A stretch of 64,000 nucleotides of DNA from Antedon mediterranea (taxonomy: Eukaryota; Animalia; Echinodermata). Below are positions 338 to 64,000 of the stretch, in pieces. Below the pieces are notes generated by a model that was not told the origin of the DNA, did no database searches, and saw only the letters and a program-made list of their open reading frames with translations. The position numbers were made by a program, and so were the translations under genes. Within the stretch, counting starts at the first letter, position 1; every line of letters begins with the position of its first letter. Location of the stretch: assembly GCF_964355755.1 (NCBI RefSeq), contig NC_092679.1, positions 23,605,432-23,669,431 on the forward strand, read 5' to 3'.

Positions 338-546
338 CTTTAAAAAAGAATACAAAAGTAAAAATTACAAATTATCAGTGGTACCAGGATTGTACCGCCA
401 AGGTGATATGCAACAAGCGAAGCGAGCATCATCATTGGTATGGTTGGTGCAGGGCCACAGTTAAGGATCCAGGGGAAGAATGACGTTCAGTGTATTTAAT
501 TTGAGGCCATTTTAATGAATAAAATAAGTTAACTTACTATACTCAC

Positions 547-551
547 AGTTC
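547..551 (-). pseudogene. Remnant of an LRR exon (donor side only), truncated by repetitive DNA
   Basis: The intron module 340-546 matches 50630-50831 and ends in atactcac-agttc, as at 50826-50836. Similarity then stops abruptly. Confidence 0.5.
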
Positions 552-1463
552 AGTACACTTTTTTTTCGATTTCCATTTTACAACCTTTCTTTGGAAATTT
601 TATCCTATTTTATTCAATTTTCAACTTGAAATCGCTATATACGAGCATGCGAAAGTGACAGGCTACACACAGAAAAACTCGTGAAAATGTTATGAAATGT
701 ACTGAATTTTAAAATTAAAGTTGAACCTCCGTGAGCGGCCACCTCCCGTATTTCAAAAGCCCGTGCATTTGGTGCCAAAATGATATCACTCTCACTGGGT
801 TGTTACATTAGAAAATCTTTGTAATTCAATCTGTTTCCTCTTTTAATCACATTTTATTTTAAGGCTTTGGTACAACCAGTCGTGCAAACGCTGACTTACT
901 ATACGCGCGAAGCGCTCTGTTGTGACGCTTTTACTCAAAATAGGCATACTGTATGGGGGAAAATGTCACCTTTTCATAGCCTATTACCGCAGTTTTCATA
1001 GTTTAAATATCAATTTTTAACACATTTATAATAACGAGAGTGCCATTTCCGACCATCTAGAGGTGTTATATTTGCAAAATTGGTTTTATTAAAGTGTTAT
1101 GTTGCTGTAATTTCTAACAAGAATTTATGAATCCTTGACTGTGATTGGCTACAGAGATAAATTACGCTCTCTGATTGAATTAATAAAATGATATCTTTAA
1201 AAAAATAGATTATCTTTATTTACTAAATCAAGGCATAATCTATAATTCCGTCACATTAAATCTTGTTATTTTTATTTATATTTTCTGAAGCACCTAATAA
1301 TGTTCTGTATTTTGATTAGGCTTACAAAGTAATTAATTGTTCTGATAATATCAACCAATCCCATGCACTTGACTAGCGGCATCACTTGGTTGGTACTAGG
1401 CCCGCTAGGTCCGTTATTCGACGACGCTATCATCGTTACTTAACTTAAGTAATATTTTATTAC

Positions 1464-1529
1464 AAAAATAATGTTAAATCAGCAAATTCATTGGCTGACA
1501 ATGTAACTATTTCGTTATCGTACAAATAC
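1464..1529 (-). CDS. Shortened LRR exon (66 nt, in frame) of gene C: (L)YLYDNEIVTLSANEFADLTLF(L)
   Basis: ttaaag|G TAT TTG...TTT TT|gtaata. Same cassette family with a 6-nt deletion and a weaker donor, so possibly degenerate. Confidence 0.55.
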
Positions 1530-2500: not shown

Positions 2501-2502
2501 GT

Positions 2503-5731: not shown

Positions 5732-5864
5732 AATTCTTTTACCGTATTATTTGTATTGAACTCAACGAGCTGTGAATGTACGGTTGTATTCCATCTATAA
5801 CATGGTATACGCCAACCACGCAAATAGGTGACATTATAGCAACGGCAATTTGTTGGGCATACAC
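5732..5864 (-). CDS. LRR N-terminal cap (LRRNT) exon of gene C: (G)VCPTNCRCYNVTYLRGWRIPCYRWNTTVHSQLVEFNTNNTVKE(L)
   Basis: aacgtag|GT...TT|gtacgt; 133 nt, phase 1 to phase 2. It joins the signal-peptide exon and the LRR exons in frame, carries a CPxxCxC...C cap motif and is homologous to 25837-25954. Confidence 0.85.
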
Positions 5865-9696: not shown

Positions 9697-10545
9697 AATA
9701 GGCCTACTGTATTATGCCTTATACATAATAGGCCTACTGTATTATGCCTTATACATAATAGGCCTACTGTATTATGCCTTATATTAATAGGCCTACTGTA
9801 TTATGCCTTTTATTAATAGGCCTACTGTATTATGCCTTATACATAATAGGCCTACTGTATTATGCCTTATTTTAATAGGCCTACTGTATTATGCCTTATA
9901 TTAATAGGCCTACTGTATTATGCCTTATATTAATAGGCCTACTGTATTATGCCTTATATTAATAGGCCTACTGTATTATGCCTTATATTAATAGGCCTAC
10001 TGTATTATGCCTTATACATATTAATAGGCCTACTGTATTATGCCTTATATTAATAGGCCTACTGTATTATGCCTTATACATATTAATAGGCCTACTGTAT
10101 TATGCCTTATACATATTAATAGGCCTACTGTATTATGCCTTATACATATTAATAGGCCTACTGTATTATGCCTTATACATATTAATAGGTCTACTATTAT
10201 GCCTTATACATATTTAGCCCATTAACACTGCACTTAATAGGCCTACTATATTTGGCCTTATACATATTTAGCCCATTAACACTGCACTTAATAGGCCTAC
10301 TATATTTGGCCTTATACATATTTAGCCCATTAACACTGCACTTAATAGGCCTACTATATTTGGCCTTATACATATTTAGCCCATTAACACTGCACTTAAT
10401 AGGCCTACTATATTTGGCCTTATACATATTTAGCCCATTAACACTGCACTTAATAGGCCTACTATATTTGGCCTTATACATATTTAGCCCATTAACACTG
10501 CACTTAATAGGTCTACTTTATTATGCATTATACATTATTTAGCCC
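9697..10545. repeat. Compound minisatellite: 29-33-bp units (taataggcctactgtattatgccttata) switching to 54-bp units at about 10200
   Basis: Direct inspection; the periodic ORFs (18-aa MYKAKYSRPIKCSVNGLN) reflect the 54-bp unit. Confidence 0.95.
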
Positions 10546-10972
10546 ATTGCACTATTTGGAATTACATTGTTTATTAAATATGGGCAACGACAGGAATAAC
10601 GAGAGAAAAATGAATAAATGAATGAATTAATGAATGAATGCATGTAAACAAAATCGGAAAATTTATTCCACGAGATATAAAATATATATTCGTGAGGTAA
10701 TTTCCCGCATGATCGCAATCAAAAAACGGTACTGGACTTGGTCTACTAGCGTTTTGCCTCATAAATATTCATGAAGTCATCATTGGTATTTACCCCATTG
10801 TTTTAGCGGTCATTGTTATTTATTAGTTACCATTATTGTAGTCGTTTTTAACTGTACGGTTGATGTGTCCTAAGAAGTGTAACAAGAAGGCAAAACAGGT
10901 ACATCACTGCTAATGTTGAAGTGGTGATCTCATAGTGAGTTATGTTGTGTTATTTAACTATTTATTAGAATA

Positions 10973-11340: not shown

Positions 11341-11893
11341 AGAATTTGGGTTTGTTCTTAATCTTAATCTTAGTCAGGCAAGTTCACGAATCGAACCATC
11401 TCGCTCTACACCATGTAACCTACATTTGATAGTGATCCAGTTTACTCGCATCATTGTCAGTAAAGTAAGCCTATAACAAACTCAAATAATACAAACAACA
11501 TCACAATTTTAACTAATTCTACTTTATTTTAATCGTTAAATTGCGCATCATGTCAGAGTAGTTATAATTAAAATCATAATTAATACAAACCAATTCTATA
11601 ATAATTTAAAACGAAGATCTACGATATCTTAATTATCTTTTAAAATGAAGGTTACTTAAAAGTATAAAACAAATCAATATACTTAGCAATTGCTTTTTTA
11701 TCAATTTGTATAATATAAACTAATATACCAATAGTAAGTTTTATCAGATGACAAAAACAAACAATGTTGGCCTAATGCATTGGCAAACACATTGATGTAG
11801 GCCTGTAAAGTGCACTTTATCTATACTTTTCTATTGAATAAGTTATTTATAATCTATACACATTCTTCACATAAATAACATTAATTATAATAA

Positions 11894-13186: not shown

Positions 13187-13360
13187 TAATTGTATAAAGA
13201 AACGAATGTAGATAAAAAACAACTATGTAATAAAAAAGTGTTAATGGATTATATGTATAAAAAGAGGAAAGCAGTATTAGTAGAAATTATATATTAAAAC
13301 AAAATTATGAAAAATGTGATAAAATGTAACGAAATGAATACAACTTAAAAAAAAGCTTAA

Positions 13361-16205: not shown

Positions 16206-16576
16206 TTAAATGTAAGCAGATGATAAAACAAACATTATCAATAGAATAATAGGCAAAGTGTACTGAAATGAAAATGTTTTTAGAGAAAACTATATGTAAC
16301 GAGATAAGGAACTTATGTATGGAAAGATAAAAAAAAACATTAATTATAATAATGTACATTTTTATATATTTTTTACAATGATTTATTGGTCAAACTGTCT
16401 AATTATGAAGTTTAAACTGTAGTTCTAAAAACATTGACGGTTTATTTTAATCTACAAAATGTTTAATAATCAAGAAACCATGAAACTACTTAATGCAGAA
16501 TGTACAATTTAGATATACTTAAAATGATAAACAATTTAAAACTCCCAAATAACAATGATGATTTATTTCAATTTCA

Positions 16577-16886
16577 TTTTTTTTTTCTTTTGTTTCATAA
16601 ACAACAATTACAGAATCTCTAAGCATTTTCTACATTTTTTTCGTTATTTTCTTATTTTTATCCTTTATAATATTTGGCCTATACGTAGTACCCAATGTTT
16701 TCTTAATGTATATATTTGTTTTTTTCTACTACATTTATAAAATATATATATGTTTACATTATTTTCTGCATATTTTTTGTTATGTTATCTATTACAAAAT
16801 ATATTGCATATTAATAAAAAAGTTGTTTACTTATGAAACGTTTGTTAACTTATTTAAATCATAATTTGTGTGTCTATCAGTTTATA

Positions 16887-16924
<38 letters not shown>

Positions 16925-18767: not shown

Positions 18768-19888
18768 TTATCTGTCAGTATTTCTAGGTCTCATTTCCTG
18801 AAGCTGTATAACAACCACAGGTCGTGTTCGATTGGTATAAGCAACGTTTGGTTTCTTATCTTTGCTTAAACAAGTAAAGCAATAGTCGATAATTGTGTAT
18901 AGATAGGGATTGACCGAGGAGTTAATTGGTATGATGAACATTGCAGAAAAAACATATATTTCCACAGGAGGTACCCACCAATCCAGTTCAGCACCAATTG
19001 CCATCAATACAATAGGAAACCAGCAACAGAAATCTGTGAAAATGAGAAACCCTATTTTTACAGCAAGTTTGATATCTTTTTTTCTTCTTCGTTTTCTGTT
19101 AGCACCTGCTGATGAGCGCTTGATAGACACGAAAATGATTACGTAACTCACAGCGATGACGATAAAACCTAAACTGTCCGATGTAGATAGCAAAAGCATA
19201 CTCCCAGCCTGGCCAGTGGCTTTTTGATAACGGCAGTGCAAGGCACACACTCTTTACTCCATAATAATTATCCCCGAAATAATACCACGCCACGTCGTCG
19301 TCGAAGTAATAATACTTGTGTTTTATGACGTTTGCTACTTCTGGAAGAAAGCTGAGCACAATCCAACACACCCATGCAATTCCGATAATAATTCTACAAT
19401 TTCTGCAACTAAGACGTTTGGTACTAAATGGATAAGCGATGTTTATAGCACGGTCGATGCTTAAAAGAATTAGTGTAAAAACCGAAGACTGACCAGAGAG
19501 AGTAGCAATGGCACCAGCAAAACTGCAAAGAAAACTATCCTTCCAATCCGATTCAAATTGTGCGTATCGACCTCTATAATGCATATCTACACTTAAAATG
19601 ATAATCAAATAGATTACCATCAGCAGGTCCGACACGGCAAGGTTGGTGATGAGTATGGTTTGCACTTTATTAATTTCGTTATCATTACTTTTGTTGTTAT
19701 CCTTTTTACACTGTCGTGATATGATAACGACTAAATTTCCAGTAACTGCTGAAATTACAATAATCCACATCAATACCCGTATGTATTCACTTTCTAGTAA
19801 GTCTTCACATGAAGCAAATGGATCTACGCCAGGATAGCAATAATCAATGTCACCCACAATGGAACATAAACATGATAAATCCGCCCAC
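18768..19888 (-). pseudogene. 7TM exon of GRL101/RXFP-like LGR gene A, frameshifted
   Basis: ttatag|G TGG GCG GAT acceptor; SCEDLL, NLAVSD, SIDRA, FTDFCCWFP and PINSSVNPYLY motifs. A 5-bp deletion (TTCAA) at about 19177 relative to gene B splits it into two ORFs. Confidence 0.9.
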
Positions 19889-25836: not shown

Positions 25837-25954
25837 AGTCCTTTAACTGAAGTATAATTGTTATACTCGACAAGCTGTGCATGTTTATGTTTATTCCATC
25901 CGGTACATTGTACGCAATGGTGCTCTAATCCATTACAAGTTGGTCGACAATAAA
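25837..25954 (-). pseudogene. LRRNT-like exon of gene A: (V)YCRPTCNGLEHHCVQCTGWNKHKHAQLVEYNNYTSVKG(L)
   Basis: tttgacag|TT...CT|gtaagt; phase 1 to 2; aligns with the gene C exon (WNxxxHxQLVE). An alternative acceptor at 26043 would be out of frame. Confidence 0.7.
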
Positions 25955-26100
25955 CTGTCAAATAACCAGAGTACAAACACGTCCACCATGGAAATTATAA
26001 ATACAAGATATTGGGCTTCTTGCATTGGGCAGGAATAAGTAGCCTTAAAATGAAGTATACAGATAATAAACTAATACAAATTAGTATTAATACTAATAAT

Positions 26101-32925: not shown

Positions 32926-34030
32926 TTATCTGTCAGTATTTCTAGGTCTCATTTCCTGAAGCTGTATAGGCCTAACAGCAACCGGTCGTGCTTGATTGGT
33001 ATTGGCAAGATTTGCTTTCTTAAAGCAACAATCGACAATTGTGTATAGAAAGGGATTGACCGAGGAGTTAATTGGTATGATGAACGTCGCTGACAAAACA
33101 TATATTTCCACAGGAAGCGTCCACCAATCCAGTTCAGCACCAATTGCCATCAATACAATAGGAAACCAGCAACAGAAATCTGTGAAAATGAGAAAGCCTA
33201 TTTTCACTGCTAGTTTGATATCTTCTTTTCTTCTTCGTTTTCTGTTAGCACCTGCTGATGCGCGCTTGATAGACACAAAAATGATTATATAACTCACAGC
33301 GATGATGATAAAACCTAAACTGTTGAATCCTATGTAGATAGCAAAAGCATATTCCCAGCCTGGCCAGTGGCTTTTTGATAATGGCAGTGCAAGGCACACA
33401 CTCTTTACTCCATAATAATATTTCCCGAAATAATGCGACGTCACTTCGTAATACCAGATGTATGTTATGGCGTTTGCTACTATTGGGAGAAAGCTGAGCA
33501 CAATCCAACACACCCATGCAAATCCGATAATAATTCTACAATTTCTGCAACTAAGACGTTTGGTACTAAATGGATAAGCGATGTTTATAGCACGGTCGAT
33601 GCTCAAAAGCATCAATGTAAACACCGAAGACTGACCAGAGAGAGTGGCAATTGCACCAGCAAAACTGCAAAGAGGACTCCATTTCCAACCCCATTCAAAT
33701 GTTGCATATCGCCCTCTGTAATGTATATCTACACTTAAAATGATAATCAAATAGACTACCATTAACAGGTCAGACACGGCAAGGTTGGTGATGAGTGTGG
33801 TTTGGACTTTATTAATTTCGTTATCATTACTTGTGTTGTTATCCTTTTTACACTGTCGTGATATGATAACGACGAAATTGCCACTAACAGCTGTAATTAC
33901 AATAATCCACATCAATACCCGTACGTATTCACTTTCTAGTAAGTCTTCACATGAAGCAAATGGATCTACGCCGGGATGGCAATAATCAATGTCCCCCACA
34001 ATGGAACATAAACATGACGAATCCGCCCAC
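32926..34030 (-). CDS. Terminal exon (hinge + 7TM + C-tail) of GRL101/RXFP-like LRR-GPCR gene B
   Basis: Intact ORF extended to the phase-2 acceptor ttatag|G TGG GCG GAT. Motifs WADSSCLC, SCEDLL, GNFVV, NLAVSDLLM, SIDRA, VCLALP, FTDFCCWFP and PINSSVNPFLY are typical of LGR class C-like receptors. Confidence 0.93.
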
Positions 34031-35231: not shown

Positions 35232-35303
35232 AATTCTGTTAAGTTTTTCAATTCCTCAAAAGTACTCGAATTGTAATCCTGTAAGTTGTTACCGCGTAAC
35301 CGT
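35232..35303 (-). CDS. Last LRR exon of gene B: (L)RLRGNNLQDYNSSTFEELKNLTE(L)
   Basis: ttttgtag|A...TT|gtaagt; 72 nt, phase 2/2, LRR consensus. Confidence 0.88.
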
Positions 35304-35613: not shown

Positions 35614-35688
35614 AATATTCTCAGTGATGAAGCAAAAGAAGTAAATGCATATCGATCTATTGTAGTTATGCTGTTGGAATTTAAATGC
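35614..35688 (-). CDS. LRR exon of gene B: (L)HLNSNSITTIDRYAFTSFASSLRI(L)
   Basis: cttttaaag|G...TT|gtaagt; 75 nt, phase 2/2. Confidence 0.88.
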
Positions 35689-50370: not shown

Positions 50371-50624
50371 ATTTGGTTTATGGCCACATTCCTTTAAAAA
50401 AAGATACAAAAACTAAAAATTACAAATTACAAAAAGCGGTAGAACCAGGATCGTCCCGGCCCGACAAGGGGATGTGCATGAAAAAGCGATCACCATTTGG
50501 CTGATTGCATGTCAAGTGGCCCAGGGACAAATGAGCCGTTTTAATAATTTAAAAAGGGTTACTTAATATACTCACTGTATTTTCATTGGGTGACAATGTA
50601 ACTATTTGGTTTATGTACTAAAAC
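50371..50624 (-). pseudogene. Two decayed LRR cassette exons (50371-50391 truncated; 50576-50624 with a deletion and lost AG)
   Basis: They retain the flanking intron modules, the atactcac donor or ctttaaa acceptor, and part of the caatgtaactatttggtt core. Confidence 0.65.
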
Positions 50625-50831
50625 CGTTAAAAAATAATGCAAACGTACAGTAGCAATTAGCAGTGTTACCAGGATCGTTCCGACAAGGGGGATATGCAAC
50701 AAGCGAAGCAAGCATCATCACTTGGTTGGTGCTAGGGCCACAGTTGGGGGTCCAGGGGAAGAGTGACGTTCAGGGTATTTAATTTGAGGCAATTTTAATG
50801 AATAAAATAAGTTAACTTAATATATACTCAC

Positions 50832-50903
50832 AGTTCTTCCAATGCTGTCAAATCAGCAAATGCATTGGCTGGCAATGTAACTATTTGGTTACCGCTCAAA
50901 CGC
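50832..50903 (-). CDS. LRR cassette exon of gene B: (L)RLSGNQIVTLPANAFADLTALEE(L)
   Basis: ctttaaag|G...CT|gtgagt; 72 nt, phase 2/2. Confidence 0.87.
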
Positions 50904-52436
50904 CTTTAAAGAAAGAATACAAACGTAGAATACAATTGTACAAATTACTACAACAAATTACTTATTTCATTATATTATTTCCGCTGAACGACACGAAATC
51001 ACAAAAAAACAGTTTTATTTTATGGTGTTTTTTAATGTGTTTGTTATTATTGACCGTTTTTTTATGATGTTTTATGACGTTATTGCTATGCCTAATTAAT
51101 TTCCTACAATGTCATGTTATTTTTATTTTTTTAGTGTTGAAACATTGTCGTCATTGACGTTTTAAAGTAAGATGATCCCCAAATCGTACTATTGTTGTGA
51201 CGTTTATACGTGATGGCTAAGCATAAAACTATATTAAAGTAGACATGTTCGTAACATTTACTTATCCTGAAATCAAAAACGTCTATAACCTTTGACCTGG
51301 TACATCATGCTATATCAGAGCTATCAGACTTTATAATGACCTAATGTTAAAGGATAGGAGACAATTGGTGGTCTGGGACTGTGTCTCAAGTAAACTGGAA
51401 CTAAATTTCCAAAAACTTTATTTGTGTACGAAGGGGAAAGTTATAATTTGTAATCTGAAAACATAATATGACTTAATAGACCAGTAGCCCAGAGGGGTCA
51501 ACCTAGCTGGAAAGTTAACCAATATTTCTATGCATGTGGCAATTATCTACTATCTATCAATGTATGCAAATGACAGTCTGGCGCAAAGTTTACATTGTAA
51601 AGGGTAAAAAATGATCAAGATCAGCTGAAAAGTTAACCCCATGAAATCTTTTGCAAATTGTTTGCCATAGAGCAAAGTGTAATGAGTGACTATTTCCAGA
51701 CAATTTTAGTGGTTGGGGTGCCTGTCAGACCTCCATTTCAGGATGGCCAACATTGAGCTAGATCAGCTTAAAAGTTAACCCTCTAAAACTGGTGGGAAAA
51801 ATGTTCAATAAACTCATAACTATCATGAATGACCATTGCCAGACATTTTAAGTGGTAGATTGTGCCCGCCAGACTAGAACTAGAATCGTGTGAACGCAAG
51901 TAGTAATTCTTTGATCATGGCCATTAATCGCCACGTTCTTAATGTGTCAAGAATGCACATACAATGGAATGCCTTGTTGCATTGACTTTATATATTTATA
52001 TGTTTTTGTTCTATGAGCTCTTAGATTAAGATTTTTTTTTTCTCTTTTGCTATGAATATAATTATTATGTCACCATGATATTCCGAAAAAAAAGTTAATG
52101 AAAGATGAATGAATGAATGATACAGATCTTTAATTATATTTCTAATTGATAGTCACTTCGTTACTAAATAGTATACATAATTAGAGTTTAAAATTGTGTT
52201 TCTATGAACAGCATTTATCGATGTGCAAATTAAGTCAGAAGTCATAATGCAGGTTTTGTAGTAATTTTCACTCAAAATGTCTCGTGATTTCCAAAATTGA
52301 AGACATTGTGTGTTATCCATACCACTAAGTGCTTGGTGTTTGTAAGTCTTTCTGCTTTAGGTTAATGATATAGATGTAGGGTAAGCTGGTGTGAACCATC
52401 TCTTCATTCCAGTTGAGAATCATTGCTTCGGTCTTA

Positions 52437-53155
52437 AGCTCTGTCTACATTACTTATTATTTATTTAATTTCAATCTTTCTACATAACAAAAAAAGACAT
52501 ATAAGTATAACAGCAGAGTAGCGGAAAAGCAAAAGTAATAAAACTGTCATCTTGTGATGTGCTTGACCAGCCCCTGTCAACTAGGATGATACAATAAAGC
52601 CGAGATTTAACAAATTTAGAAACGTACATAGACAAATATGCTATAATAAAATGTTAATAAAAGTGTTCTAAAAATACAATTGCTGATAAGATTGTATAAA
52701 AGTTAAAAAGTTAAAAATTCTGATTGTATAAAAGTTAAAAAGTTAAAAATTCAGAGTAGGTACAATCTAAAAAAAAATCATGTACATTTTCAAAACTTTT
52801 GGTTTATAAAAATATGAAAAGTTAGAAATCTATAAAATGTTGCTTTAAACTGTGTTTAAACTTAAAAAACGACTCTTCAATAAGATTATTTCTGATCGTA
52901 GCACCAAGTTCTGAAAACATTTTAGGAAACCGTACTATCCCTGAGTATTTAAAAGCATCAGTACGAGCTCTACCATGATGAAAGGTGAGTATATCTAGGT
53001 GTCGGTTATTAACTATCAAACTTTATGTGACAAAAAAATGTGATGTGCCCATATATGGAAATGATGTCATATCACTACCATATTTGGGAATATCACTATT
53101 ATATTTGGGCACATTACACTTTTTGTCAAACTAGTTTGATTGTGTAGACAGAGCT
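52437..53155. mobile_element. Harbinger-type MITE (TTA TSD) interrupted by a minus-strand LINE 3' fragment (about 52452-53010)
   Basis: tta|AGCTCTGTCTACA...TGTAGACAGAGCT|tta; the ARTDAFKYS ORF fragment and ttattt tail belong to the LINE. Confidence 0.75.
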
Positions 53156-53661
53156 TTAGTAAGGTACATATTGATGTCTATAATGTGTAGCTCATCAGAT
53201 GACTGAGCTGGACTGAGCTGAACTGAGCTGAACTGAACTGCTGGGCATAGCCTATCTCACATTAAGTGCATAATCCACTTTTGTGTTCTATTAGTATTAA
53301 TTAGTGGCTTTATTTGAAATTTTATACAGTACTTGTAGCTCCTGAACGTCTGCGATATTATATGATTATTTTCTGTCAGTGTCGTAAAGGAACAGGTAGA
53401 GAGTATATTGGCTGCAAGAATTTGTGTATTGTGAGTATGGTAGAGTTGTTTGAAGAACGCAGGAAAGCCTATTGTTGTGATGATTTTTATGATTTTGGGT
53501 TGCGGGTGATAACAAAGTATTTTGGCTACAGCTGGTTTGGGAGAAACGGCATAGAAATATCGAAGTCGAAGGATAACATTCATTGCAACCGTTACAAGGG
53601 TAGGCCTATATTCGATGGAGATTCATCTATAGATAATAAAGTTAACGGTCAATAACCTTAA

Positions 53662-53996
53662 AGGCCGGGCACACTGTCTGGCACGAAGAACAGTTTGCTC
53701 ACTAAAAATTTTTCGTAAATTATGATTGTATTCAATCAGAGTGCTTTCAAACAAAATTATACGCCACACACTGACTAATAAATTAGATTGTACATGCGCA
53801 GTGGAATTTTCTTGTCAGCAGTTAGCTCACGTTCGCCGCACAGTGTGAGGAAAAAGAAATGCGTGAAAAATATTAAACATGATAGATATTTTCCTCAACG
53901 GCATCCATGGCCAATCACGAATTTCCCGCCGCACAGTACACTGTGAGCAAAGTTTTATTCGTGCCAGTTGGCTCAGCCGATAGTGTACGCCGAGCT
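53662..53996. mobile_element. Harbinger-type MITE
   Basis: Imperfect TIRs ggccgggcacactgtctggc / gccgatagtgtacgccgagc with TWA-like flanks. Confidence 0.5.
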
Positions 53997-55384
53997 TTAC
54001 TTCAAACCATTTTGTCACAAAATATCTCATTATAGGCCTATACAAAATATAAATGTATATATTCTGAAACATTTGAACAATAATAACTGTTTCTATGGTC
54101 AGTAGTTATCGAGATATAGCATATCAAGGTCAAAAGAAAAAAAATGGCATTTCCTGTAATTGTCAGAATGTTTTAGAGTAAATATAAATATGTGTATATT
54201 CTCAGTATTTAAAGCCCATAGTTTGCCGAGATATTGAAATGCTACTGAAAAATATCAATTTCAAAGGTCAAAAAATGCAAGAAATAGAATTTCCGGGCAT
54301 TTTTGGCCAAAATGAGAGCAGAGCAAATATAAATTTATATATGTGAACTTTATTCAATCAATCGTACATTTGTTATAATGGTAACCGCAATAAGGTATAA
54401 TATTACAAATAAATATGTTCTGAATATTTTGGTACCAGAAACATGTCAATAAACAAATTAAAATGTCCATATCTTAAAGATCTGGAAATTTTTACTTGTT
54501 TTTCCGGTCGAAAATTCCCAATACTACCAAATCCGTTGAAATCCGTTCTACTCTACTATTTAAGTTAGCTTTAGGCTAATCTATGTATGTTTGGGGTGGT
54601 TGTTCAATACTAGGGAGGCATGTTTTACAAGATAAGCTTTTGAGCTGATCTACTGAACATTAAAAATGTCAATGGCAATGGTCATTTATGATAATATTAG
54701 GGATCATGCTGAACATTTTAAAGCATGTTTTATAAGGTTAAGTCGAATTTTTGGAGGGTGGGGTGTTTCACAGTGTCTGGCGGGCAATTAGAATGTTAAT
54801 TTAAACTGATCTAGCTCATTTGTGGCCCTCCTGAAATGGGGTCTGGCAGGCACACCCACCAGTAAAATTGTATGGCAATGGTCATTCATTACATTTCACT
54901 CTATGTCAAACAATTTGCAAAAGATTTCATTGAGTTAACTTTTCGGTTGATCTAGATCATATTTTTGACCCTAGTACAATGCCCCTCCTAGCCACACCCA
55001 CCAAAATAAACTCGCCAGACTGTCATTTCCATTTGATATGTACGTTGATAATTGCCACATGCATAGAAATTGGTTAACTTTCCAGCTAGGTTGACCCCTC
55101 TGGTCTCCTGCTCTATAATGTCAGGTGTTTCGACACACAAGTAGTTTTAAAAACCCAATTTGTTCAAATCAATCCGCTTGTTTGAGGCGTTTTGATAGGC
55201 TAGTCTATTATACTATAGGAAGCAATCTCATCCGTTTGGCTTTTTTTTTTATCTAGTAAAGTGGTGGTACGGTCCTGCATGGTTAACCAAGCACCACTGT
55301 CTTAAGCCTGTTTTCCAGCCGACGTTATTCGACGACGCTATCATCGTTGATCGTTAAAAGTTAACTTAAGTAATATACACTCAC

Positions 55385-55456
55385 AGTTCTTTCAATGCTA
55401 TCAAATCAGCAAATGCATTGGCTGGCAATGTAACTATTTGGTTATAGCTCAAATAC
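55385..55456 (-). CDS. LRR cassette exon of gene B: (L)YLSYNQIVTLPANAFADLIALKE(L)
   Basis: ctttaaag|G...CT|gtgagt; 72 nt. Confidence 0.87.
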
Positions 55457-55801
55457 CTTTAAAGAAAGAATACAAACGTAGAATACAATTATACATTATT
55501 TTAATGTGATACAAATTTACTACAAAATACACATTTCTACAAAAAAAGTACTTATTATTATATTATTTCCGCTGAACGACACGAAATCACAAAAAAACAG
55601 TTATTTTAATAATGTTTTTTTATTTTCATGACTGTTTCGGTATTGTTATGCCTATTAATTACCTACACAATGGTATGTTATGTTTTTTTAAGTTTTTGAA
55701 ACAGTAAAGAAAAGTGGTACGGCCCTGCATGCACTGTCTTAAGCCTGTTTTCTCGACGCTATTATCGTTTAGTTGTAAAAGTTAACTTAAGTAATACTTA
55801 C

Positions 55802-55873
55802 AAAAATGTCAATGCTGTCAAATCAGCAAATGCATTGTCTGGCAATGTAACTATTTGGTTAAAACCCAATTTC
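55802..55873 (-). CDS. LRR cassette exon of gene B: (L)KLGFNQIVTLPDNAFADLTALTF(L)
   Basis: tttaaag|G...TT|gtaagt; 72 nt. Confidence 0.87.
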
Positions 55874-57063
55874 CTTTAAATAAAAAGTACAAACGTAGAA
55901 TACAATTATACATTATATTAATGTGATAAATATTTACTACAAAATACAAATTACTACAAAAAAGTACTTACTTCATTATATTATTTCCGCTGAACGACAC
56001 AAAATCACAGAAAAACAGTTATTTTATGGTGTTTTTTAAGGTATCTCTGTGTTATTATTTGACCGATTTTTATGACTGTTTCCTTATTTTTATGCCTAAT
56101 TATTTTCCTACAATATCATGTTGTTTTTATTTTTTTAGTGTTTGAAACATTGTCGGCATTGACGTTTTAAAGTAAGATGATCAAAAAATCGTCCTATTGT
56201 TGCGACGTCTATGTGGACTGCACCCGATTCTGTAGCTGTTAGTACATTCAACGTGGAAGACTATTGACAGTCTACCAGAGACCTATCTGACTGTATTAAG
56301 TACTTTTAATACACGATATCGCTGTCATTAGGTTCCTATCTGGAGACAATTTGTAACGTTATAGCTATATTCAATATAAAATCCACTCGGCAACCAGAAT
56401 AGTATAGTAGCACAGGTTATGGTATTGCCATGCAAGAAAGGCCTAGGCCTAGTCAATTATTGTACGAATTACGTAATTAGTTTAGTAGCTCATCTACCTT
56501 TTTAGCAGGGCATAATGAATATCGTAGCTAGGCTAGGCCTACTAGCGTGAAATCAACCAATTATTTGGGTGGTATGAGGGGGGTGGGTAGGAAGTTAAGT
56601 ACGAGTTGGCATGGGTACGAGTCGACCAGGGTACACCCACTAGCCCCACTACTAGAGCATAGGCTATAGTCCTGCGAGAATGGGAAATCTGGCCTAGATA
56701 GGCATAGGCCTAAATTAGGTACGCCGCAAAAAAGCTATCCTATGAGCATAAAAAGGCCTCGTAGTAGAGCCAAAGGTGTTAGCCCACTACTACGGATCAC
56801 TAATTAATCTATCTAGGCCCGGGCTAGCTAGCCTAGGCCTATAGAGTTAATTTTAAATTAAGTAGGCCTAGGCCTGGTTGGTTGGTTGCTGGGCTTCAGT
56901 AATTTCGGTCGCATTTTCGGCCTACTTTTCAGGACATGTGAGAGGTGAGGTAGGTTAGCCCAGCTAGGCTAACCTAACCTGTAAGTAGTATTCTAGCCCA
57001 TCCATGATGCCTGATGGGTACGAGTTGGCAGCCATTGGTACGAGTTGACCCGTATTCTAGCTA

Positions 57064-57265
57064 GGGTGTCCTGGTCAACCCGTACCCAAACCAACCCGTA
57101 TGTAATATAAATATACTTTTAATAGCATTAAACATGGGTACAGGCGCGCCAGCCCATGATGAGTACGAGCCAGCCCATGATGTGCAGGAGTGGGCCAACA
57201 TTTTGGGTATGAGTAAACCAAAATTTGGGTACGTTGTTGGCATGGGTACGTGTTGACCTGTATCC
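57064..57265. mobile_element. MULE-type MITE nested in the foldback arm (mirror copy at 62862-63064)
   Basis: GG...CC termini, cgtaccc subterminal repeats, 9-bp TSD ttctagcta. Confidence 0.75.
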
Positions 57266-59201
57266 TTCTAGCTAATCTTACTAGGCCTAGAGTAGAGTAG
57301 GTCTATGCTATACCCAGACCGGTTACAATAATGGTCTATTCATTCTGTTTATACTGTAGCTTTATTGATAGCTGGGTTGGGGCGGCTTTTTCTCATTCTA
57401 AAACAGATTTCCTTATCATAATAAAATAATATATAAATTTAAATGTAATATTGTATACATAATATTAGTAATTGCCATTGCATTTATTATAATTATATAT
57501 TATACGGTTACCCCTTAATTATACTATAGTATAATTTTCTTGTTATATTTTACAATATTTTCTTCATAGTTCAACAATTTTTTCTTTCACAGGAAAAATT
57601 ATCATACTGAATCATCACACACCAAGTCTCATAAAGCTCTACTGTATTTCTCCAAGGTACTCCAGCTACATGGTATTGCCTTGAGGCTAAACTACAGTAA
57701 ACGATATACTGGCACTACCATCATTCCTGGCCCGTCAACCTGGACCACATTACAGTATGGTCCAACACATAAGTACAGTAGTCGTACTACTGATTCAAAA
57801 TAGTGAATTACACCCTGTGGTCAAGGCTTTATTTGCTCTTATGCTTATTTCCTCCAAATACAGAGTACGTAGGGCTTTCAATTTGCTTTTATACCTGTTA
57901 ATTTAAAAATCGTTTATGCCTATTGTTGCATAAAGTATCAAATTTAGACTGTAAATACTGGGATGATCACCCTAAATTTTCTTTTTCAATTAACAATTTT
58001 ATATTTCACAGCTGAAAAATGCACTAAAGCATCATATAGAGATTTTTTATTCATAACTGTTAAATTGCATCCCAATACATGGTACCTATATAAAAATACA
58101 AAGGCGGCCAACACAGATAGTTTGATATATACAGTACTCTCTTATAAATAGATGTATCTCTCCAAACTACTCCAACTACCTAATTAGCATACTATTGTAC
58201 ACTTTGTAGACAAGAAATAAATTGTATCCACCTAGAGGACTTATGGTAGTACAGTCGATCGTCCTGTCACTGGCCCGGTCAACATAATCTACGCCTAGAT
58301 TATTACAGTAATTAAAGTACATTATTACAGAGATTTTTTTTTTTTTGCAGATCAAAGTTATGTGTATAGAAAGCAGTACTCGTATTAAAAACTAAGCAGG
58401 TTATATTCTTGTACGCAAACTGGCAGGATGTTTTGAATATTTTTTGTTGTTGAAATGATGGAATCCTAACGTCATTTTCCACGAGCTGGAGAGTGACAAA
58501 GACATATTACGACCCTTTTATTTAAATTTATTTGGATAGACCTCCATGTAAATTCATTAAAGGCTATATGATTGTTTTATATTTTAATATGTGATAGTAG
58601 ATAATCATTGTGCATAATGAAGACTATGAATCTAATATTTACTTGCATTCTCATCTTTGTTTATGTAACTATTTTGTCTAATTGCATTGGATTTTTGTAT
58701 AGGCCAATGGCATTAATGTTTTTCTCAAAGCAAATTAGCCTAATAATGCCATATTTAGACACATAATTCATTGATTTCTGATATTCTGTACTTGTGTATG
58801 CATTACTAAAATAGTAGTTATTTTATTACTTTTATAATGTATAAACATTTATTCATTTTTTTTTTACATTTTTTAATTTAAAAATTATTAAAATACCTAT
58901 CTACCTTTCTGTTATTGTTACTATTATAATATTTTTTGAGGCAGATTGATTTCAATAAAAAAAAATTAAAACAATTAATTTGACTTATACTGTACTATGT
59001 TAGTTCAGGAGATGAAGTGTGTGTGGGCAGAATCTGGTGTGTTGGAGGTTGGTGATGCGAGGTGTATAGTTGTCACTTTAAGACCTAAATTAGATGTTTT
59101 CTGAAGAAAAGAAGTAAGAGGATAGGCTTTCAAACAACTTCAAGAAGATTCACACAGAAATAATTACTTCCCAATAAAATAGTATGTAACTGTGTATATT
59201 A

Positions 59202-60108
59202 CAGTACATTGAATAAACTCGAGCGGAAAAATAACACACATAAAAAAATATTAATTTTCTTGTCCAAAAACGCCCTCTCTAGTTTTCTATTAATTTATTA
59301 ATAATTATTATTAATTAATGAGCAATTATAAACATATTTTTAACATTTAATGCTTGAAGCTGATTCTACTCCTAACAAAGTTTCTTACCTCCAAATTTCA
59401 TCAACGTATTCAAAGCACTTCAATAAATATCACATTCAACATTAAAAATTAGGGTTATGATAGAATTTTGCTTAAAAACATATACAAAAAACATTGATAA
59501 AAAATATTTTTCGTATTCAAAAACATTTGATACTTGGTATAAATGTTCAATATAGGTTGCTCCATCCATATTGCAAAAAATAAATAAATATCGAGCCATA
59601 TCACTGATTTTTTAAATTTACGTTTTTACAAAATGTACACTTATGAAAGATCGTACAACTCCAACGCATTTTTTAAACCTAATAACGATTTTGAAAAAAC
59701 AACCAAAAAAAAAACGTTCATGAATGAAATTTTTTTTCTGTGAATAGAGCAACCTATATTGAACATATAAAAAAAGTTTCAAATGTTTTTAAATTCGAAA
59801 AGTATTTTTTATCGATGTTTTTTGTATACTGTTTTTAAGCAAAATTCTATCATAACCCTAATTTTTAATGTTCAATGTGATATTTATTGAAGTGCTTTGA
59901 ATACGTTGATGAAATTTGGAGGTAAGAAACTTTGTTAGGAGTAGAATCAGCTTTAAGCATTAAATGTTAAAAATATGTTTATAATTGCTCATTAATTAAT
60001 AATAATTATTAATAAATTAATAGAAAACTAGAGAGGGCGCTTTTCGACAAGAAAATGAATGTTTTTTTATGTGTGTTATTTTTCCGCTCGAGTTTATTCA
60101 ATGTACTG
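59202..60108. mobile_element. Probable Tc1/mariner-type MITE at the palindrome centre
   Basis: ta|CAGTACATTG...CAATGTACTG|ta; its TIRs (about 360 bp) are visibly more mismatched than the outer arms. Confidence 0.6.
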
Positions 60109-63100
60109 TAATATACACTGTTACATACTATTTTATTGGGAAGTAATTATTTCTGTGTGAATCTTCTTGAAGTTGTTTGAAAGCCTATCCTCTTACTTCT
60201 TTTCTTCAGAAAACATCTAATTTAGGTCTTAAAGTGACAACTATACACCTCGCATCACCAACCTCCAACACACCAGATTCTGCCCACACACACTTCATCT
60301 CCTGAACTAACACAGTACAGTATAAGTCAAATTAATTGTTTTAATTTTTTTTTATTGAAATCAATCTGCCTCAAAAAATATTATAATAGTAACAATAACA
60401 GAAAGGTAGATAGGTATTTTAATAATTTTTAAATTAAAAAATGTAAAAAAAAAATGAATAAATGTTTATACATTATAAAAGTAATAAAATAACTACTATT
60501 TTAGTAATGCATACACAAGTACAGAATATCAGAAATCAATGAATTATGTGTCTAAATATGGCATTATTAGGCTAATTTGCTTTGAGAAAAACATTAATGC
60601 CATTGGCCTATACAAAAATCCAATGCAATTAGACAAAATAGTTACATAAACAATTAATACTAATATTGGTAGGCATAAAATAAAAGTGTATATAAACTTT
60701 CCTTAAATATAAACAGTATAGGGCCTTACCAATTTATTTAATACATAATATATAAACTATATTACCACAAAATAAATATAAATGAATTTATAAGGACATG
60801 ATGATTATCAAAAATAGTCAATATAATTTAATATTATGTTCATATTATTATAATTATTATATCATAAAGATTTTCAAAAACATAGTTTGATAACTTTTAG
60901 TTTATGTTAGATATCAGACCTTTAATATTTGGAAATAACCTATAATAACTATAAAACATTCTTCTTTTGAACGCAGTATGCATATGTAGATACAGTACAC
61001 ATATATTGTAAGAACACAATTTCAATAATTTCTTTGTTAGTTATCAACCTAGGGGTTAAGTTATTAGGAAAACATTGGTTTATTTTTTATATAAATTATA
61101 TGTACAGAAATTCGTTCTTCTAGCCTCAGATCATTCCTGAAGTTAGACATAAATCACCCAAATTAGTATTAAGTAATGGATATTAGATGAAGTACAGTAC
61201 AAACATTTTTCAGGAGGATACTTTATGTTAAAAGGTGATAATTAGTTTAAATTTTACCCCGATGAAATTTATTCAATTACCAGGTTGAAGTATGGTGGAA
61301 ACACTACTATATGGCAGAATAAATGTACTCATGTAGAACACAGTCAGTTCTACCAAGGTTAGAGGTGTGCCACAATTTGAGATAAGTGGAAACATGACTT
61401 TTTCAATAGTAAACTCATTACCAGCATTATAAATACAATTTTAAAAAGATGAGAATGCAAGTAAATATTAGATTCATAGTCTTCATTATGCACAATGATT
61501 ATCTACTATCACATATTAAAATATAAAACAATCATATAGCCTTTAATGAATTTACATGGAGGTCTATCCAAATAAATTTAAATAAAAGGGTCGTAATATG
61601 TCTTTGTCACTCTCCAGCTCGTGGAAAATGACGTTAGGATTCCATCATTTCAACAACAAAAAATATTCAAAACATCCTGCCAGTTTGCGTACAAGAATAT
61701 AACCTGCTTAGTTTTTAATACGAGTACTGCTTTCTATACACATAACTTTGACTTCTGCAAAAAAAAAAAAAATCTCTGTAATAATGTACTTTAATTACTG
61801 TAATAATCTAGGCGTAGATTATGTTGACCGGGCCAGTGACAGGACGATCGACTGTACTACCATAAGTCCTCTAGGTGGATACAATTTATTTCTTGTCTAC
61901 AAAGTGTACAGTAGTATGCTAATTAGGTAGTTGGAGTAGTTTGGAGAGATACATCTATTTATAAGAGAGTACTGTATATATCAAACTATCTGTGTTGGCC
62001 GCCTTTGTATTTTTATATAGGTACCATGTATTGGGATGCAATTTAACAGTTATGAATAAAAAATCTCTATATGATGCTTTAGTGCATTTTTCAGCTGTGA
62101 AATATAAAATTGTTAATTGAAAAAGAAAATTTAGGGTGATCATCCCAGTATTTACAGTCTAAATTTGATACTTTATGCAACAATAGGCATAAACGATTTT
62201 TAAATTAACAGGTATAAAAGCAAATTGAAAGCCCTACGTACTCTGTATTTGGAGGAAATAAGCATAAGAGGAAATAAGCATAAGAGCAAATAAAGCCTTG
62301 ACCACAGGGTGTAATTCACTATTTTGAATCAGTAGTACGACTACTGTACTTATGTGTTGGACCATACTGTAATGTGGTCCAGGTTGACGGGCCAGGAATG
62401 ATGGTAGTGCCAGTATATAGTTTACTGTAGTTTAGCCTCAAGGCAATACCATGTACAGTAGCTGGAGTACCTTGGAGAAATACAGTAGAGCTTTATGAGA
62501 CTTGGTGTGTGATGATTCAGTATGATAATTTCTCCTGTGAAAGAAAAAATTGTTGAACTATGAAGAAAATATTGTAAAATATAACAAGAAAATTATACTA
62601 TAGTATAATTAAGGGGTAACCGTATAATATATAATTATAATAAATGCAATGGCAATTACTAATATTATGTATACAATATTACATTTAAATTCATATATTA
62701 TTTTATTATGATAAGGAAATCTGTTTTAGAATGAGAAAAAGCCGCCCCAACCCAGCTATCAATAAAGCTACAGTATAAACAGAATGAATAGACCATTATT
62801 GTAACCGGTCTGGGTATAGCATAGACCTACTCTACTCTAGGCCTAGTAAGATTAGCTAGAAGGATACAGGTCAACACGTACCCATGCCAACAACGTACCC
62901 AAATTTTGGTTTACTCATACCCAAAATGTTGGCCCACTCCTGCACATCATGGGCTGGCTCGTACTCATCATGGGCTGGCGCGCCTGTACCCATGTTTAAT
63001 GCTATTAAAAAGTATATTTATATTACATACGGGTTGGTTTGGGTACGGGTTGACCAGGACACCCTAGCTAGAATACGGGTCAACTCGTACCAATGGCTGC

Positions 63101-64000
63101 CAACTCGTACCCATCAGGCATCATGGATGGGCTAGAATACTACTTACAGGTTAGGTTAGCCTAGCTGGGCTAACCTACCTCACCTCTCACATGTCCTGAA
63201 AAGTAGGCCGAAAATGCGACCGAAATTACTGAAGCCCAGCAACCAACCAACCAGGCCTACTTAATTTAAAATTAACTCTATAGGCCTAGGCTAGCTAGCC
63301 CGGGCCTAGGCCTAGATAGATTAATTAGTGATCCGTAGTAGTGGGCTAACACCTTTGGCTCTACTACGAGGCCTTTTTATGCTCATAGGATAGCTTTTTT
63401 GCGGCGTACCTAATCTAGGCCTATGCCTATCTAGGCCAGATTTCCCATTCTCGCAGGACTATAGCCTATGCTCTAGTAGTGGGGCTAGTGGGTGTACCCT
63501 GGTCGACTCGTACCCATGCCAACTCGTACTTAACTTCCTACCCACCCCCTCATACCACCCAAATAATTGGTTGATTTCACGCTAGTAGGCCTAGCCTAGC
63601 TACGATATTCATTATGCCCTGCTAAAAAGGGAGATGAGCTACTAAACTAATTACGTAATTCGTACAATAATTGACTAGGCCTAGGCCTTTCTTGCATGGC
63701 AATACCATAACCTGTGCTACTATACTATTCTGGTTGCCGAGTGGATTTTATATTGAATATAGCCTATAACGTTACAAATTGTCTCCAGATAGGAACCTAA
63801 TGACAGCGATATCGTGTATTAAAAGTACTTAATACAGTCAGATAGGTCTCTGGTAGACTGTCAATAGTCTTCCACGTTGAATGTACTAACAGCTACAGAA
63901 TCGGGTGGTGGACTGGTACTGAGTCTCAAGTAAACTGGAACTACTTTTCCAAAAACTTTATTTGTGTACGAGTGGGAAAGTTATAATTTGTAATCTGAAA

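What the first reader, a model, noticed from the sequence alone, without database searches (positions are those of the whole stretch)
340..64000. The duplication unit is exon plus intron, shared between genes; introns have diverged more than exon cores
Seen: intron 340-546 (gene C) matches 50630-50831 (gene B). 50904-51200 matches 55457-55700 and 55874-56212. 63908-64000 matches 51368-51460, and 1410-1450 matches 55322-55372. These introns show frequent substitutions and indels, yet exon cores have no silent differences. Variable 5' and 3' codon sets appear reassorted: exon 266 shares AAA with 55802 but AGC GGT with 50832. Inference: unequal crossover or gene conversion through the invariant core shuffles the variable ends, and more cassettes probably lie beyond both window edges.
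Basis: partly seen in the sequence, partly recalled or inferred. Interest (0 to 1): 0.72.

Follow-up and report, generated by a model that had tools for sequence, protein, structure and literature searches.

The report
Feather star receptor repeat-exon cluster
Three neighbouring feather-star receptor genes encode each unit of their predicted ligand-binding arm in its own 72-base exon, copied together with the intron beside it, and the few fast-changing codons sit on the predicted binding face, which likely marks a diversifying recognition family, although the proposed swapping through an unchanging core is not shown.

Summary
The repeats are real. The window holds three tandem, minus-strand LRR-GPCR genes of an Antedon-type crinoid (GRL101-derived; no LDLa found). 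Each 24-residue LRR is one 72-bp phase-2 exon, duplicated with its intron: four intact copies and four damaged ones. All five intron matches check out, but substitutions are only 7-13%; indels dominate. The 17-codon core has 0 silent differences at about 12 sites, which is within chance (P 0.05-0.16). Silent changes do occur in a fifth exon and genome-wide. The 'reassorted' 5' codons fit simple descent from one ancestor, and modules of genes B and C are colinear, so whole-gene duplication can explain their sharing. What stands out is different: the five fast codons are LRR positions 2, 3, 5, 7 and 8, the concave face. They diverge at 42%, faster than introns, and the 7TM extracellular loops are also enriched for change. 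Two modules look mosaic, so some exon-level recombination is likely. Hundreds of related contigs and three spliced 72-nt junctions show a large, transcribed family. Verdict: birth-and-death LRR-exon evolution with likely diversifying selection, like Ectocarpus ROCO genes but on a GPCR; conversion through the core is plausible and unproven.

The parts
55802..55873 (-). Gene B LRR exon B1 (72 bp, phase 2-2)
   Evidence: AAG/GTAAGT splice sites, open frame, Pfam LRR_8 E=0.0085, below the curated cutoff
55457..55801 (-). Intron of class YZ (short form, 345 bp) between B1 and B2
   Evidence: aligns to the B2 downstream, B1 upstream and B3 upstream introns, p=0.08-0.13
55385..55456 (-). Gene B LRR exon B2 (72 bp)
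50904..55384 (-). Intron of class YZ (long form) between B2 and B3, with an inserted inverted-repeat element at about 51469-55123
   Evidence: Y part 55384-55230 and Z part 51210-50904 align to the other YZ introns
50832..50903 (-). Gene B LRR exon B3 (72 bp); junction between the YZ run and the X run of introns
50626..50831 (-). Intron of class X between B3 and remnant B4
   Evidence: 179 matches / 22 mismatches to 546-338; its last 34 nt resemble Z acceptors more than X acceptors
50576..50625 (-). Dead LRR exon B4 (acceptor AG lost, 23-nt deletion, frame broken)
   Evidence: nhmmer E=1.5e-6; alignments; a contig identical over 50560-50696 in two runs of one sample
50392..50575 (-). Degenerate class X intron between B4 and B5
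   Evidence: p=0.20-0.26 to the other X introns, score 103 vs shuffled max 36
50371..50391 (-). LRR exon remnant B5 (5' end only)
   Evidence: nhmmer E=0.01; acceptor alignment
35614..35688 (-). Gene B penultimate (cap) LRR exon, 75 bp
   Evidence: 72% identical to P0001 527-551; splice sites
35232..35303 (-). Gene B last LRR exon, 72 bp
   Evidence: 65% identical to P0001 553-575; splice sites
32926..34030 (-). Gene B hinge plus 7TM exon, intact
   Evidence: Pfam 7tm_1 E=5.6e-25; the six B exons splice to an open frame of 488 codons plus stop
25837..26043 (-). Gene A N-terminal cysteine-rich (LRRNT-like) exon with an in-frame stop
   Evidence: tblastn to P0001 357-393, E=0.054; translation; 52/78 nt identical to the gene C exon
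18768..19888 (-). Gene A hinge plus 7TM exon with a 5-nt deletion near 19177 (likely pseudogene; no LRR exon found between 25837 and 19888)
   Evidence: two 7tm_1 pieces in different frames; alignment to B; dS 0.177, dN 0.068; profile search
5732..5864 (-). Gene C N-terminal cysteine-rich (LRRNT-like) exon; the 5' boundary is inferred
   Evidence: tblastn to P0001 342-382, E=2.7e-8; donor GTACGT
1464..1529 (-). Gene C LRR exon C1 (66 bp, 6-nt in-frame deletion, weak donor); mosaic of X-like acceptor, B2-like 5' end, B1-like 3' end and Y intron
547..552 (-). Exon remnant C1b (only the last bases and the donor remain)
   Evidence: its downstream intron matches that of B3, 108 of 116 aligned bases in the first 120 nt; sequence
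338..546 (-). Intron of class X between C1b and C2
266..337 (-). Gene C LRR exon C2 (72 bp)
55874..64000 (-). Long YZ-class intron upstream of B1, split by a 7.7-kb foldback element (56221-63907)
   Evidence: 55874-56212 and 63908-64000 match the B2-B3 intron; 8-bp target duplication on both sides of the element

Best explanation
The window holds three tandem LRR-GPCR genes of a feather star in which each 24-residue repeat is a single 72-bp exon copied with its neighbouring intron; copies are likely gained and lost by unequal crossing-over, and the five fast-changing codons lie on the predicted ligand-contact face and are likely under diversifying selection. Shown: the exon anatomy, two intron classes (X and YZ) arranged in runs, four intact and four damaged modules, colinearity of the C modules with B2-B4, concave-position codons diverging faster than introns, and spliced 72-nt junctions for family members. 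Predicted: the beta-strand x-Leu-x is centred on the Leu codon that the intron splits. One strand's contact residues therefore come half from the 3' end of one exon and half from the 5' end of the next, and the conserved 17 codons form the convex side. Inferred: every exon is phase 2-2, so any gain, loss or skip keeps the frame. Misaligned crossovers anywhere in an exon+intron unit change repeat number. A crossover between different intron classes can only fall in the exon or its 25-40 flanking bases, and would move a whole strand (3' codons + intron + 5' codons) as a block. This likely happens occasionally, on top of whole-gene duplication and decay. The receptors likely recognise varied outside ligands (microbial, self/non-self or chemical cues) and not one fixed hormone.
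For: Anatomy and frame. Family: best hits are Antedon mediterranea proteins at 82-84%. Genes A and B sit in a 4-row clade (100/100) inside an 18-row Antedon clade (100/99), nested among LDLa-bearing crinoid GRL101-like proteins (43 rows: the 2 window genes and 41 of 226 fetched proteins, chosen by hand). Concave codons (motif positions 2, 3, 5, 7, 8, 10): mean nucleotide difference 0.42 vs 0.02 for the other 17 codons. Against their own introns: 6/18 vs 22/201, p=0.016, and 9/18 vs 44/356, p=0.0002. 5 of 6 concave positions vary vs 2 of 10 other non-consensus positions, P=0.024. In 28 repeats from 9 Antedon paralogues the three most variable of 24 positions are 7, 3 and 5. The model of P0159 (mean pLDDT 82) puts strands on motif positions 3-5. 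7TM of A vs B: 16/56 differences in extracellular loops vs 26/277 elsewhere, p=0.0003. Colinearity: C1~B2 (downstream 43/44), C1b~B3 (108/116), C2~B4 (upstream 121/140). X and YZ interiors do not align (19 vs shuffled 18.4; 16 vs 17.2). Mosaics: the B4 acceptor scores 36-40 against Z acceptors and 17-25 against X acceptors, and mismatches cluster in the last 38 columns of the X intron, p=0.01. P0159 carries a three-repeat block twice. Three contigs with a 72-nt period and no intron occur in the one run guessed to be RNA and in none of the 3 other runs of that call.
Against: Only four intact exons; no codon-model test was run. Within the concave codons the NG86 pN (0.44) exceeds pS (0.29) on about 3 silent sites only, which is uninformative. 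The concave set comes from the established LRR motif, but I applied it after seeing the data, and the breakpoint for the clustering test was also chosen by eye. The 28 repeats were picked by a pattern that fixes several columns and include duplicates. In the central 24 nt of the core, genome-wide diversity at first and second positions (about 0.04) is as high as or higher than at third positions (0.01-0.04). That is not what strong purifying selection on an old core gives, and it leaves room for homogenisation or for many dead copies. Half the modules here are damaged and gene A is broken. No ligand, tissue or expression level is known. The spliced contigs belong to paralogues, not demonstrably to these genes, and the run's RNA status is a guess.
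Confidence: 0.6

Rival explanations
1. One reading: frequent unequal crossover or gene conversion through the conserved core homogenises it across genes and is the main force that reassorts the variable ends.
For: 0 silent differences at about 12 core sites even between modules whose intron interiors do not align (C2 vs B1/B2); P(0)=0.013 if the modules are as old as the A/B gene split (dS 0.177). Only 1 of 8 third positions in the central core shows a variant at 2% or more among 194, 157 and 219 laid contigs. Summed contig depth is about 20-30 times higher on the core than on either intron class (not a copy number). Mosaic C1 and B4 acceptor. All four upstream/downstream intron-class combinations occur if C1's 24-nt X-like acceptor is counted. 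Two incompatible splits alternate along the four intact modules.
Against: The silent deficit is not significant against the introns actually measured (P 0.05-0.16; Fisher 0.10). The 95% interval for 1 of 8 is 0.003-0.53. Silent variants exist. The sites behind the conflicting split lie in codons with three states, where recurrent change is expected; the flanking-intron evidence and codon 8 agree on one split. B-C colinearity. Laying by similarity favours near-identical cores. Splice-related constraint in a 72-nt exon could also lower silent change (recalled, untested). Homogenisation does not explain faster-than-intron change at five codons.
Confidence: 0.27
2. Mostly neutral repeat turnover: a young, decaying exon+intron repeat family in which the variable ends are tolerated changes and many copies are dead.
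For: 4 of 8 modules are damaged; gene A is frameshifted and has no LRR exons; diversity at first and second positions is not below that at third positions in the pooled core.
Against: Neutral decay does not put change above the intron rate at concave positions only; gene B keeps an open frame over six exons; 7TM dN/dS is 0.38 overall with an excess in the outer loops; spliced in-frame junctions exist.
Confidence: 0.1
3. A somatically diversified receptor: dead or spare exons act as cassettes copied into an expressed gene in single cells, as in lamprey VLRs.
For: Many cassette-like copies with a shared core; a second paralogue with an X intron, a lost acceptor and stop codons but a retained core is seen in two runs of one sample (table 5c).
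Against: Gene B is a complete, spliceable germline gene, not an empty frame. The copies carry ordinary splice sites and decay like other pseudo-exons. Nothing here shows cell-to-cell variation. No inverted exon was found in the window.
Confidence: 0.03

Closest known systems
Ectocarpus ROCO and LRR-kinase LRR exons (PMC3341825; passages and part 2 of 7 read)
   Same: One LRR per 72-nt exon; inactivated exons in introns; clustering and gene birth and death; selection on concave-face residues. Their type II exon register, xLxxNxL...LxxL, is the register seen here.
   Different: The signalling module is a rhodopsin-type 7TM, not ROC-COR or a kinase. No inverted exons in this window. Intergenic recombination is shown there for ROCO (type I) exons and only suggested here; their type II exons showed no shuffling.
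GRL101 / type C2 LGRs (PMC8286064, PMC11863921, PMC6267866; passages)
   Same: LRR ectodomain, cysteine hinge and a 7TM that groups with crinoid proteins named GRL101-like.
   Different: No LDLa repeat detected in the window or in the closest full-length relative. At least 16 clusters in one species, whereas PMC8286064 reports a single GRL101 orthologue per ambulacrarian species studied.
Biomphalaria sudanica SudRes2 GRL101-like cluster (PMC12297450; passages)
   Same: Tandem cluster of GRL101-like LGRs with presence/absence variation and truncated copies, proposed to act in recognition.
   Different: Those keep LDLa and add a C-type lectin. The passages seen do not describe single-exon LRR turnover. 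Different phylum.
Vertebrate FSHR/LHCGR and RXFP1 gene structure (PMC4536197; passages; best solved relative RXFP1 7tmw, E=3.9e-65)
   Same: A run of small 69-81-bp exons for the LRRs followed by one large 7TM exon: the exon-per-repeat layout is old in this receptor class.
   Different: Those have a stable exon number, old divergent repeats and a fixed hormone ligand; here the repeats are young, near-identical and variable in number.
Lamprey variable lymphocyte receptors (recalled; mentioned in PMC3341825 passages)
   Same: 24-residue LRR modules with hypervariable concave residues and short shared stretches that could guide copying.
   Different: VLRs are assembled somatically from cassettes into an incomplete germline gene; here the modules are spliced exons of complete germline genes.
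Dscam exon arrays (PMC3236188, passages; Lee et al. 'staggered homologous recombination' seen only as a title in its reference list, mechanism recalled)
   Same: Tandem exon+intron duplication by misaligned recombination; birth-and-death.
   Different: Dscam exons are mutually exclusive, and PMC3236188 found no gene conversion between them. The LRR exons here are included in series (tandem junctions).

Membership tests
LGR (LRR-containing rhodopsin-class GPCR) | Rhodopsin-type 7TM domain | tested here: met
   Pfam 7tm_1 E=5.6e-25, above cutoff, for gene B; seven helices in the model of paralogue P0159
LGR (LRR-containing rhodopsin-class GPCR) | LRR ectodomain in frame with the 7TM through a cysteine-rich hinge | tested here: met
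   five LRR exons plus the 7TM exon of gene B give an open frame; single exons score below Pfam's cutoff but the paralogue P0001 scores LRR_8 E=3.8e-89; top solved relatives of P0159 are RXFP1 and LGR4
GRL101 / type C2 LGR | 7TM groups with GRL101-type receptors | tested here: inconclusive
   nested (100/99) with LDLa-bearing crinoid proteins named GRL101-like, but the tree held no confirmed RXFP/LGR3, LGR4 or Lymnaea GRL101 reference and was midpoint-rooted
GRL101 / type C2 LGR | Multiple N-terminal LDLa repeats | tested here: not met
   tblastn of three LDLa-bearing proteins gave no LDLa hit in the window at E<=1; no LDLa family in P0001 or in the precomputed domains of the 16 clade members. 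Caveat: the 5' end of gene B lies outside the window and many models are partial. Filed as GRL101-derived, not as GRL101.
ROCO-type LRR exon-shuffling system (Ectocarpus) | One LRR per 72-nt exon | tested here: met
ROCO-type LRR exon-shuffling system (Ectocarpus) | Inactivated LRR exons inside introns of the LRR region | tested here: met
   B4, B5 and C1b
ROCO-type LRR exon-shuffling system (Ectocarpus) | Inverted LRR exons on the non-coding strand | tested here: not met
   nhmmer plus-strand hits have E>=0.4; the five best lie inside the minus-strand exons and the other three have E>=5; window only
ROCO-type LRR exon-shuffling system (Ectocarpus) | Positive selection on concave-face residues | tested here: inconclusive
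   faster than introns (p=0.016 and 0.0002) and concentrated on concave positions (P=0.024), but no codon-model test and only 4 exons
ROCO-type LRR exon-shuffling system (Ectocarpus) | Intra- and intergenic recombination of LRR modules | tested here: inconclusive
   two mosaic modules against colinearity of B and C
ROCO-type LRR exon-shuffling system (Ectocarpus) | ROC-COR GTPase module | tested here: not met
   the C-terminal module is a 7TM; works like it, is not a member
Gene-conversion (concerted-evolution) exon array | Silent divergence in exons significantly below linked intron divergence | tested here: inconclusive
   0/24 vs 66/557, p=0.10; P(0)=0.05-0.16; 1 of 8 third positions variable genome-wide
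Gene-conversion (concerted-evolution) exon array | Incongruent trees along the module | tested here: inconclusive
   of 5 fully informative columns, 2 support C2+B1 and 3 support C2+B3; both of the former lie in three-state codons
Variable lymphocyte receptor-type somatic assembly | Incomplete germline gene flanked by unspliced cassettes | tested here: not met
   gene B is spliceable and open from B1 to the stop
Variable lymphocyte receptor-type somatic assembly | Cell-to-cell rearrangement within one animal | not testable with these tools
   only contigs, no raw or single-cell reads

The most novel reading that the evidence does not exclude
Crinoids have turned a GRL101-derived GPCR into a combinatorial recognition family. 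The intron splits each concave beta-strand, so crossovers in the conserved convex core swap whole contact strands (3' codons + intron + 5' codons) among a genome-wide pool of many tens of LRR exons, dead ones included, while selection drives the contact codons: a germline, VLR/ROCO-like repertoire wired to G-protein signalling.
Probability: 0.3. Interest if true: 0.68.

Novelty: new variant of a known kind. Interest (0 to 1): 0.42.

Why it matters
LGRs are usually treated as few, conserved hormone receptors, and one paper reports a single GRL101 per ambulacrarian species (PMC8286064, passages). A feather-star expansion with young, variable-number LRR exons and fast contact residues would add a candidate immune or chemosensory repertoire in the least studied echinoderm class, alongside the GRL101-like cluster linked to parasite resistance in snails (PMC12297450). 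It also gives a clean test of how repeat domains diversify, since exon core, contact codons and two intron classes can be given separate trees. The mechanism itself (one repeat per exon, birth and death, concave selection) is known from brown algae and other LRR families, so the surprise is moderate. Eight completed paper searches listed no paper on this crinoid family; most subscription journals are not searched and no supplements were read.

Tried and rejected
No whole genome is held, so the flanking windows and a genome-wide module alignment could not be examined. A multiple alignment of seven overlapping modules misaligned and was dropped in favour of pairwise alignments. In one search I mis-set the 7TM reading frame and one index of the concave set; both were corrected and only values are used. 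A search for short Antedon LRR proteins returned 187 hits, 120 listed, none named Antedon; it was crowded by generic LRR proteins and says nothing on absence. No RNA holder was listed for the stretch; X9 is only guessed to be RNA and also has intronic contigs. Summed contig depth was not used as a copy number (unique-looking contig 53, intron bins up to about 1460, core bin 31297 in X1). One search showed 40 of 123 variant rows, so its exon rows (8 of 8 at first or second codon positions) were not counted as a test. One search was complete but appears to list only the central 24 nt (my inference from the absence of the strong 50880/50881 variants). Deep homology of X and YZ intron interiors was tested and not found, so their age cannot be used to date the cores. 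Assembly artefact for the dead exon B4 is unlikely: a contig is identical over 50560-50696, though that sample may be the source of the window. Three look-ups of earlier findings returned nothing. The Dscam recombination paper is not held. PMC11378527 was seen only as a listing and abstract start. No complex prediction was run, as no ligand is proposed.

Full report
What the window is. The sequence is AT-rich animal DNA with LINE-like ORFs and tandem repeats. A six-frame motif scan and an AG-to-GT scan found four 72-bp minus-strand exons, each encoding one 24-residue leucine-rich repeat in the register xLxxNxI...LxxL. Two rhodopsin-type 7TM exons lie downstream. The 7TM of gene B is 82-84% identical to two Antedon mediterranea proteins that lie on one contig, and 52-65% identical to 14 further clusters from that species. 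The source is therefore an Antedon-type feather star. No whole genome is held.

Anatomy. Gene B has LRR exons at 55873, 55456 and 50903, dead exons at 50625 and 50391, cap exons at 35688 and 35303, and an intact 7TM exon (34030-32926). The six live exons have canonical splice sites and give an open frame of 488 codons plus stop. Gene A has an N-terminal exon with a stop, no detectable LRR exon, and a 7TM exon with a 5-nt deletion. Gene C has an N-terminal exon ending at 5732, a 66-bp LRR exon at 1529, a 6-base remnant at 547 and an intact exon at 337; its remainder lies beyond the left edge. The introns between LRR modules fall into two classes. X (about 205 bp) occurs at 546-338, 50831-50626 and 50575-50392. 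YZ (345 bp or longer) precedes each of B1, B2 and B3. Within a class, substitutions are 7-13% (20-26% for the most decayed X). Between classes only 25-40 bases next to each splice site align, and the interiors score like shuffles.

Checking the observation. All five intron matches are real, with substitution distances of 0.05-0.11 and many indels. The core has no silent difference among four exons, but it holds only about 12 silent sites. P(0) is 0.05-0.16 at the measured intron distances, and two independent pairs give 0/24 vs 66/557, p=0.10. Counting all sites the core is more conserved than introns (0/51 vs 22/201, p=0.01; 2/51 vs 44/356, p=0.10), which ordinary purifying selection explains. 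A fifth exon has a silent core change. The sharing of AAA and AGC GGT needs no reassortment, since exon 337 can carry the ancestral state. Of five fully informative columns across exon and flanks, three group C2 with B3 and two group C2 with B1, and those two lie in codons with three states. Gene C's three modules match B2, B3 and B4 in order, so the shared intron can come from whole-gene duplication followed by loss of different exons in each copy. Genes A and B have non-coding flanks 2-8% apart and 7TM dS 0.177, the same order as the module introns.

What does stand out. The five codons with several changes are positions 2, 3, 5, 7 and 8 of the LxxLxLxxNxL motif, the concave face (established LRR knowledge; the same face is selected in PMC3341825, passages). 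Codons at the six concave positions differ at 42% of bases against 2% elsewhere, above their own introns (p=0.016 and 0.0002). Five of six concave positions vary against two of ten other free positions (P=0.024). Among 28 repeats of nine Antedon paralogues, positions 7, 3 and 5 are the most variable (pattern-selected, with duplicates). A model of paralogue P0159 (pLDDT 82) places each strand on positions 3-5, centred on the Leu that the intron splits. The extracellular loops of the 7TM also differ more between A and B than the rest does (16/56 vs 26/277, p=0.0003). These are small samples without a codon model, but they point one way: diversification of the outward-facing surfaces.

Evidence for exon-level recombination. 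Exon 1529 combines an X-type acceptor (23/24 with C2), a B2-like start, a B1-like end, and a Y intron (43/44) that runs into a 29-base piece of X. The X intron before B4 ends in a Z-like acceptor (scores 36-40 vs 17-25; mismatch clustering p=0.01 with a breakpoint chosen by eye). By inference, growing a run of either intron class from a mixed array needs at least one crossover inside an exon. Paralogue P0159 repeats a three-LRR block (could be a model or assembly error). So recombination within modules is likely. That it is frequent enough to homogenise the core is not shown.

The wider family. On one 691-bp module 250, 311, 409 and 25 contigs were laid in four runs covering two organism labels. 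On the 84-bp exon stretch 194, 157, 219 and 15 were laid. Depth peaks on the core, but the tool warns that it is no copy number. In the central 24 nt, five variants reach 2%: four replacements and one silent (5-18%). Diversity is about 0.04 at first and second positions and 0.01-0.04 at third positions. This is compatible with young or homogenised cores but has a wide interval. Three contigs of the run guessed to be RNA join exon end to exon start with a 72-nt period and read through in frame; none of the three other runs of that call shows these joints. The tree places A and B with P0001 and P0159 (100/100) in a clade of 18 rows, 16 of them Antedon database proteins from 8 contigs, sister to five Anneissia proteins without LDLa, and nested among LDLa-bearing crinoid GRL101-like proteins (hand-picked rows, no confirmed outgroup).

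Mechanism. Most likely: germline birth and death of phase-2 exon+intron units by unequal crossing-over, plus whole-gene duplication and decay, with diversifying selection on contact codons (0.6). Neutral turnover (0.1) and somatic assembly (0.03) fit poorly. The geometry gives a testable twist: a crossover in the convex core moves one complete contact strand, made of the 3' codons, the intron and the next exon's 5' codons.

Comparison and novelty. It works like the Ectocarpus ROCO and LRR-kinase exon systems (72-nt exons, dead exons, concave selection) but is an LGR. It fails the LDLa test for GRL101 proper, so I file it as GRL101-derived. The exon-per-repeat layout is old in LGRs. A GRL101-like cluster with copy variation is linked to parasite resistance in snails; a starfish GRL101 is enriched in sensory tentacles; one paper found a single GRL101 per ambulacrarian species. 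My searches listed no description of this crinoid expansion. Rating: new variant of a known kind, interest 0.42.

Noticed in passing
window 56221-63907: A 7.7-kb near-perfect foldback element: 2.4-kb arms at 98% identity, an inner 2-kb palindrome at 94%, an identical 8-bp target duplication, and no ORF of 100 aa or more. It sits in the intron upstream of exon B1.
   Followed up: partly
window 51469-55123: A second, older inverted-repeat element (arms about 320-335 bp, 78%) in the B2-B3 intron, apparently flanked by TA on both sides.
   Followed up: no
window 18768-19888 vs 32926-34030: Differences between the two 7TM domains cluster in the extracellular loops (16/56 vs 26/277), with an indel in loop 2.
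   Followed up: yes
window 11390-20377 vs 30829-34648: The last intron and several kb of 3' flank of genes A and B are duplicated; identity rises with distance from the gene (7.5%, 4.3%, then 1.6% substitutions), which may mark a more recent exchange of the distal part.
   Followed up: partly
contigs laid on window 50668-50891 (runs X1 and X3): A paralogue elsewhere has an X intron followed by an exon with the same lost acceptor as B4 and stop codons at its start, yet a core that still aligns; dead exons are being duplicated with their genes (table 5c).
   Followed up: no
window 50880-50881: 87-94% of the summed family depth in organism A reads a different letter at each of these two positions (together Ser in place of Val), so the four exons here are a minority subtype of a larger pool.
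   Followed up: no
P0159 and P0001: P0159 has a three-LRR block repeated almost exactly. P0001 has about 340 residues before its cysteine-rich cap with no Pfam hit, and a C-terminal tail resembling a retroelement endonuclease, so the model may be fused.
   Followed up: no
window 9697-10548, 26101-26856, 30223-30857: Three tandem-repeat arrays between or inside the genes; the one at 26101-26856 (20-bp unit) lies just upstream of gene A's N-terminal exon.
   Followed up: no
window 25213-25776 and 2364-2499: A 265-bp direct repeat at 97% identity in gene A's intron, with a 137-bp inverted copy at 96% in gene C's intron.
   Followed up: no
window 2772-5114, 22778-24365, 37107-40351: LINE-type reverse transcriptase and endonuclease ORFs (recognised by eye, not scanned) inside introns of genes C, A and B; 37700-40351 is an open frame of 883 aa.
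   Followed up: no
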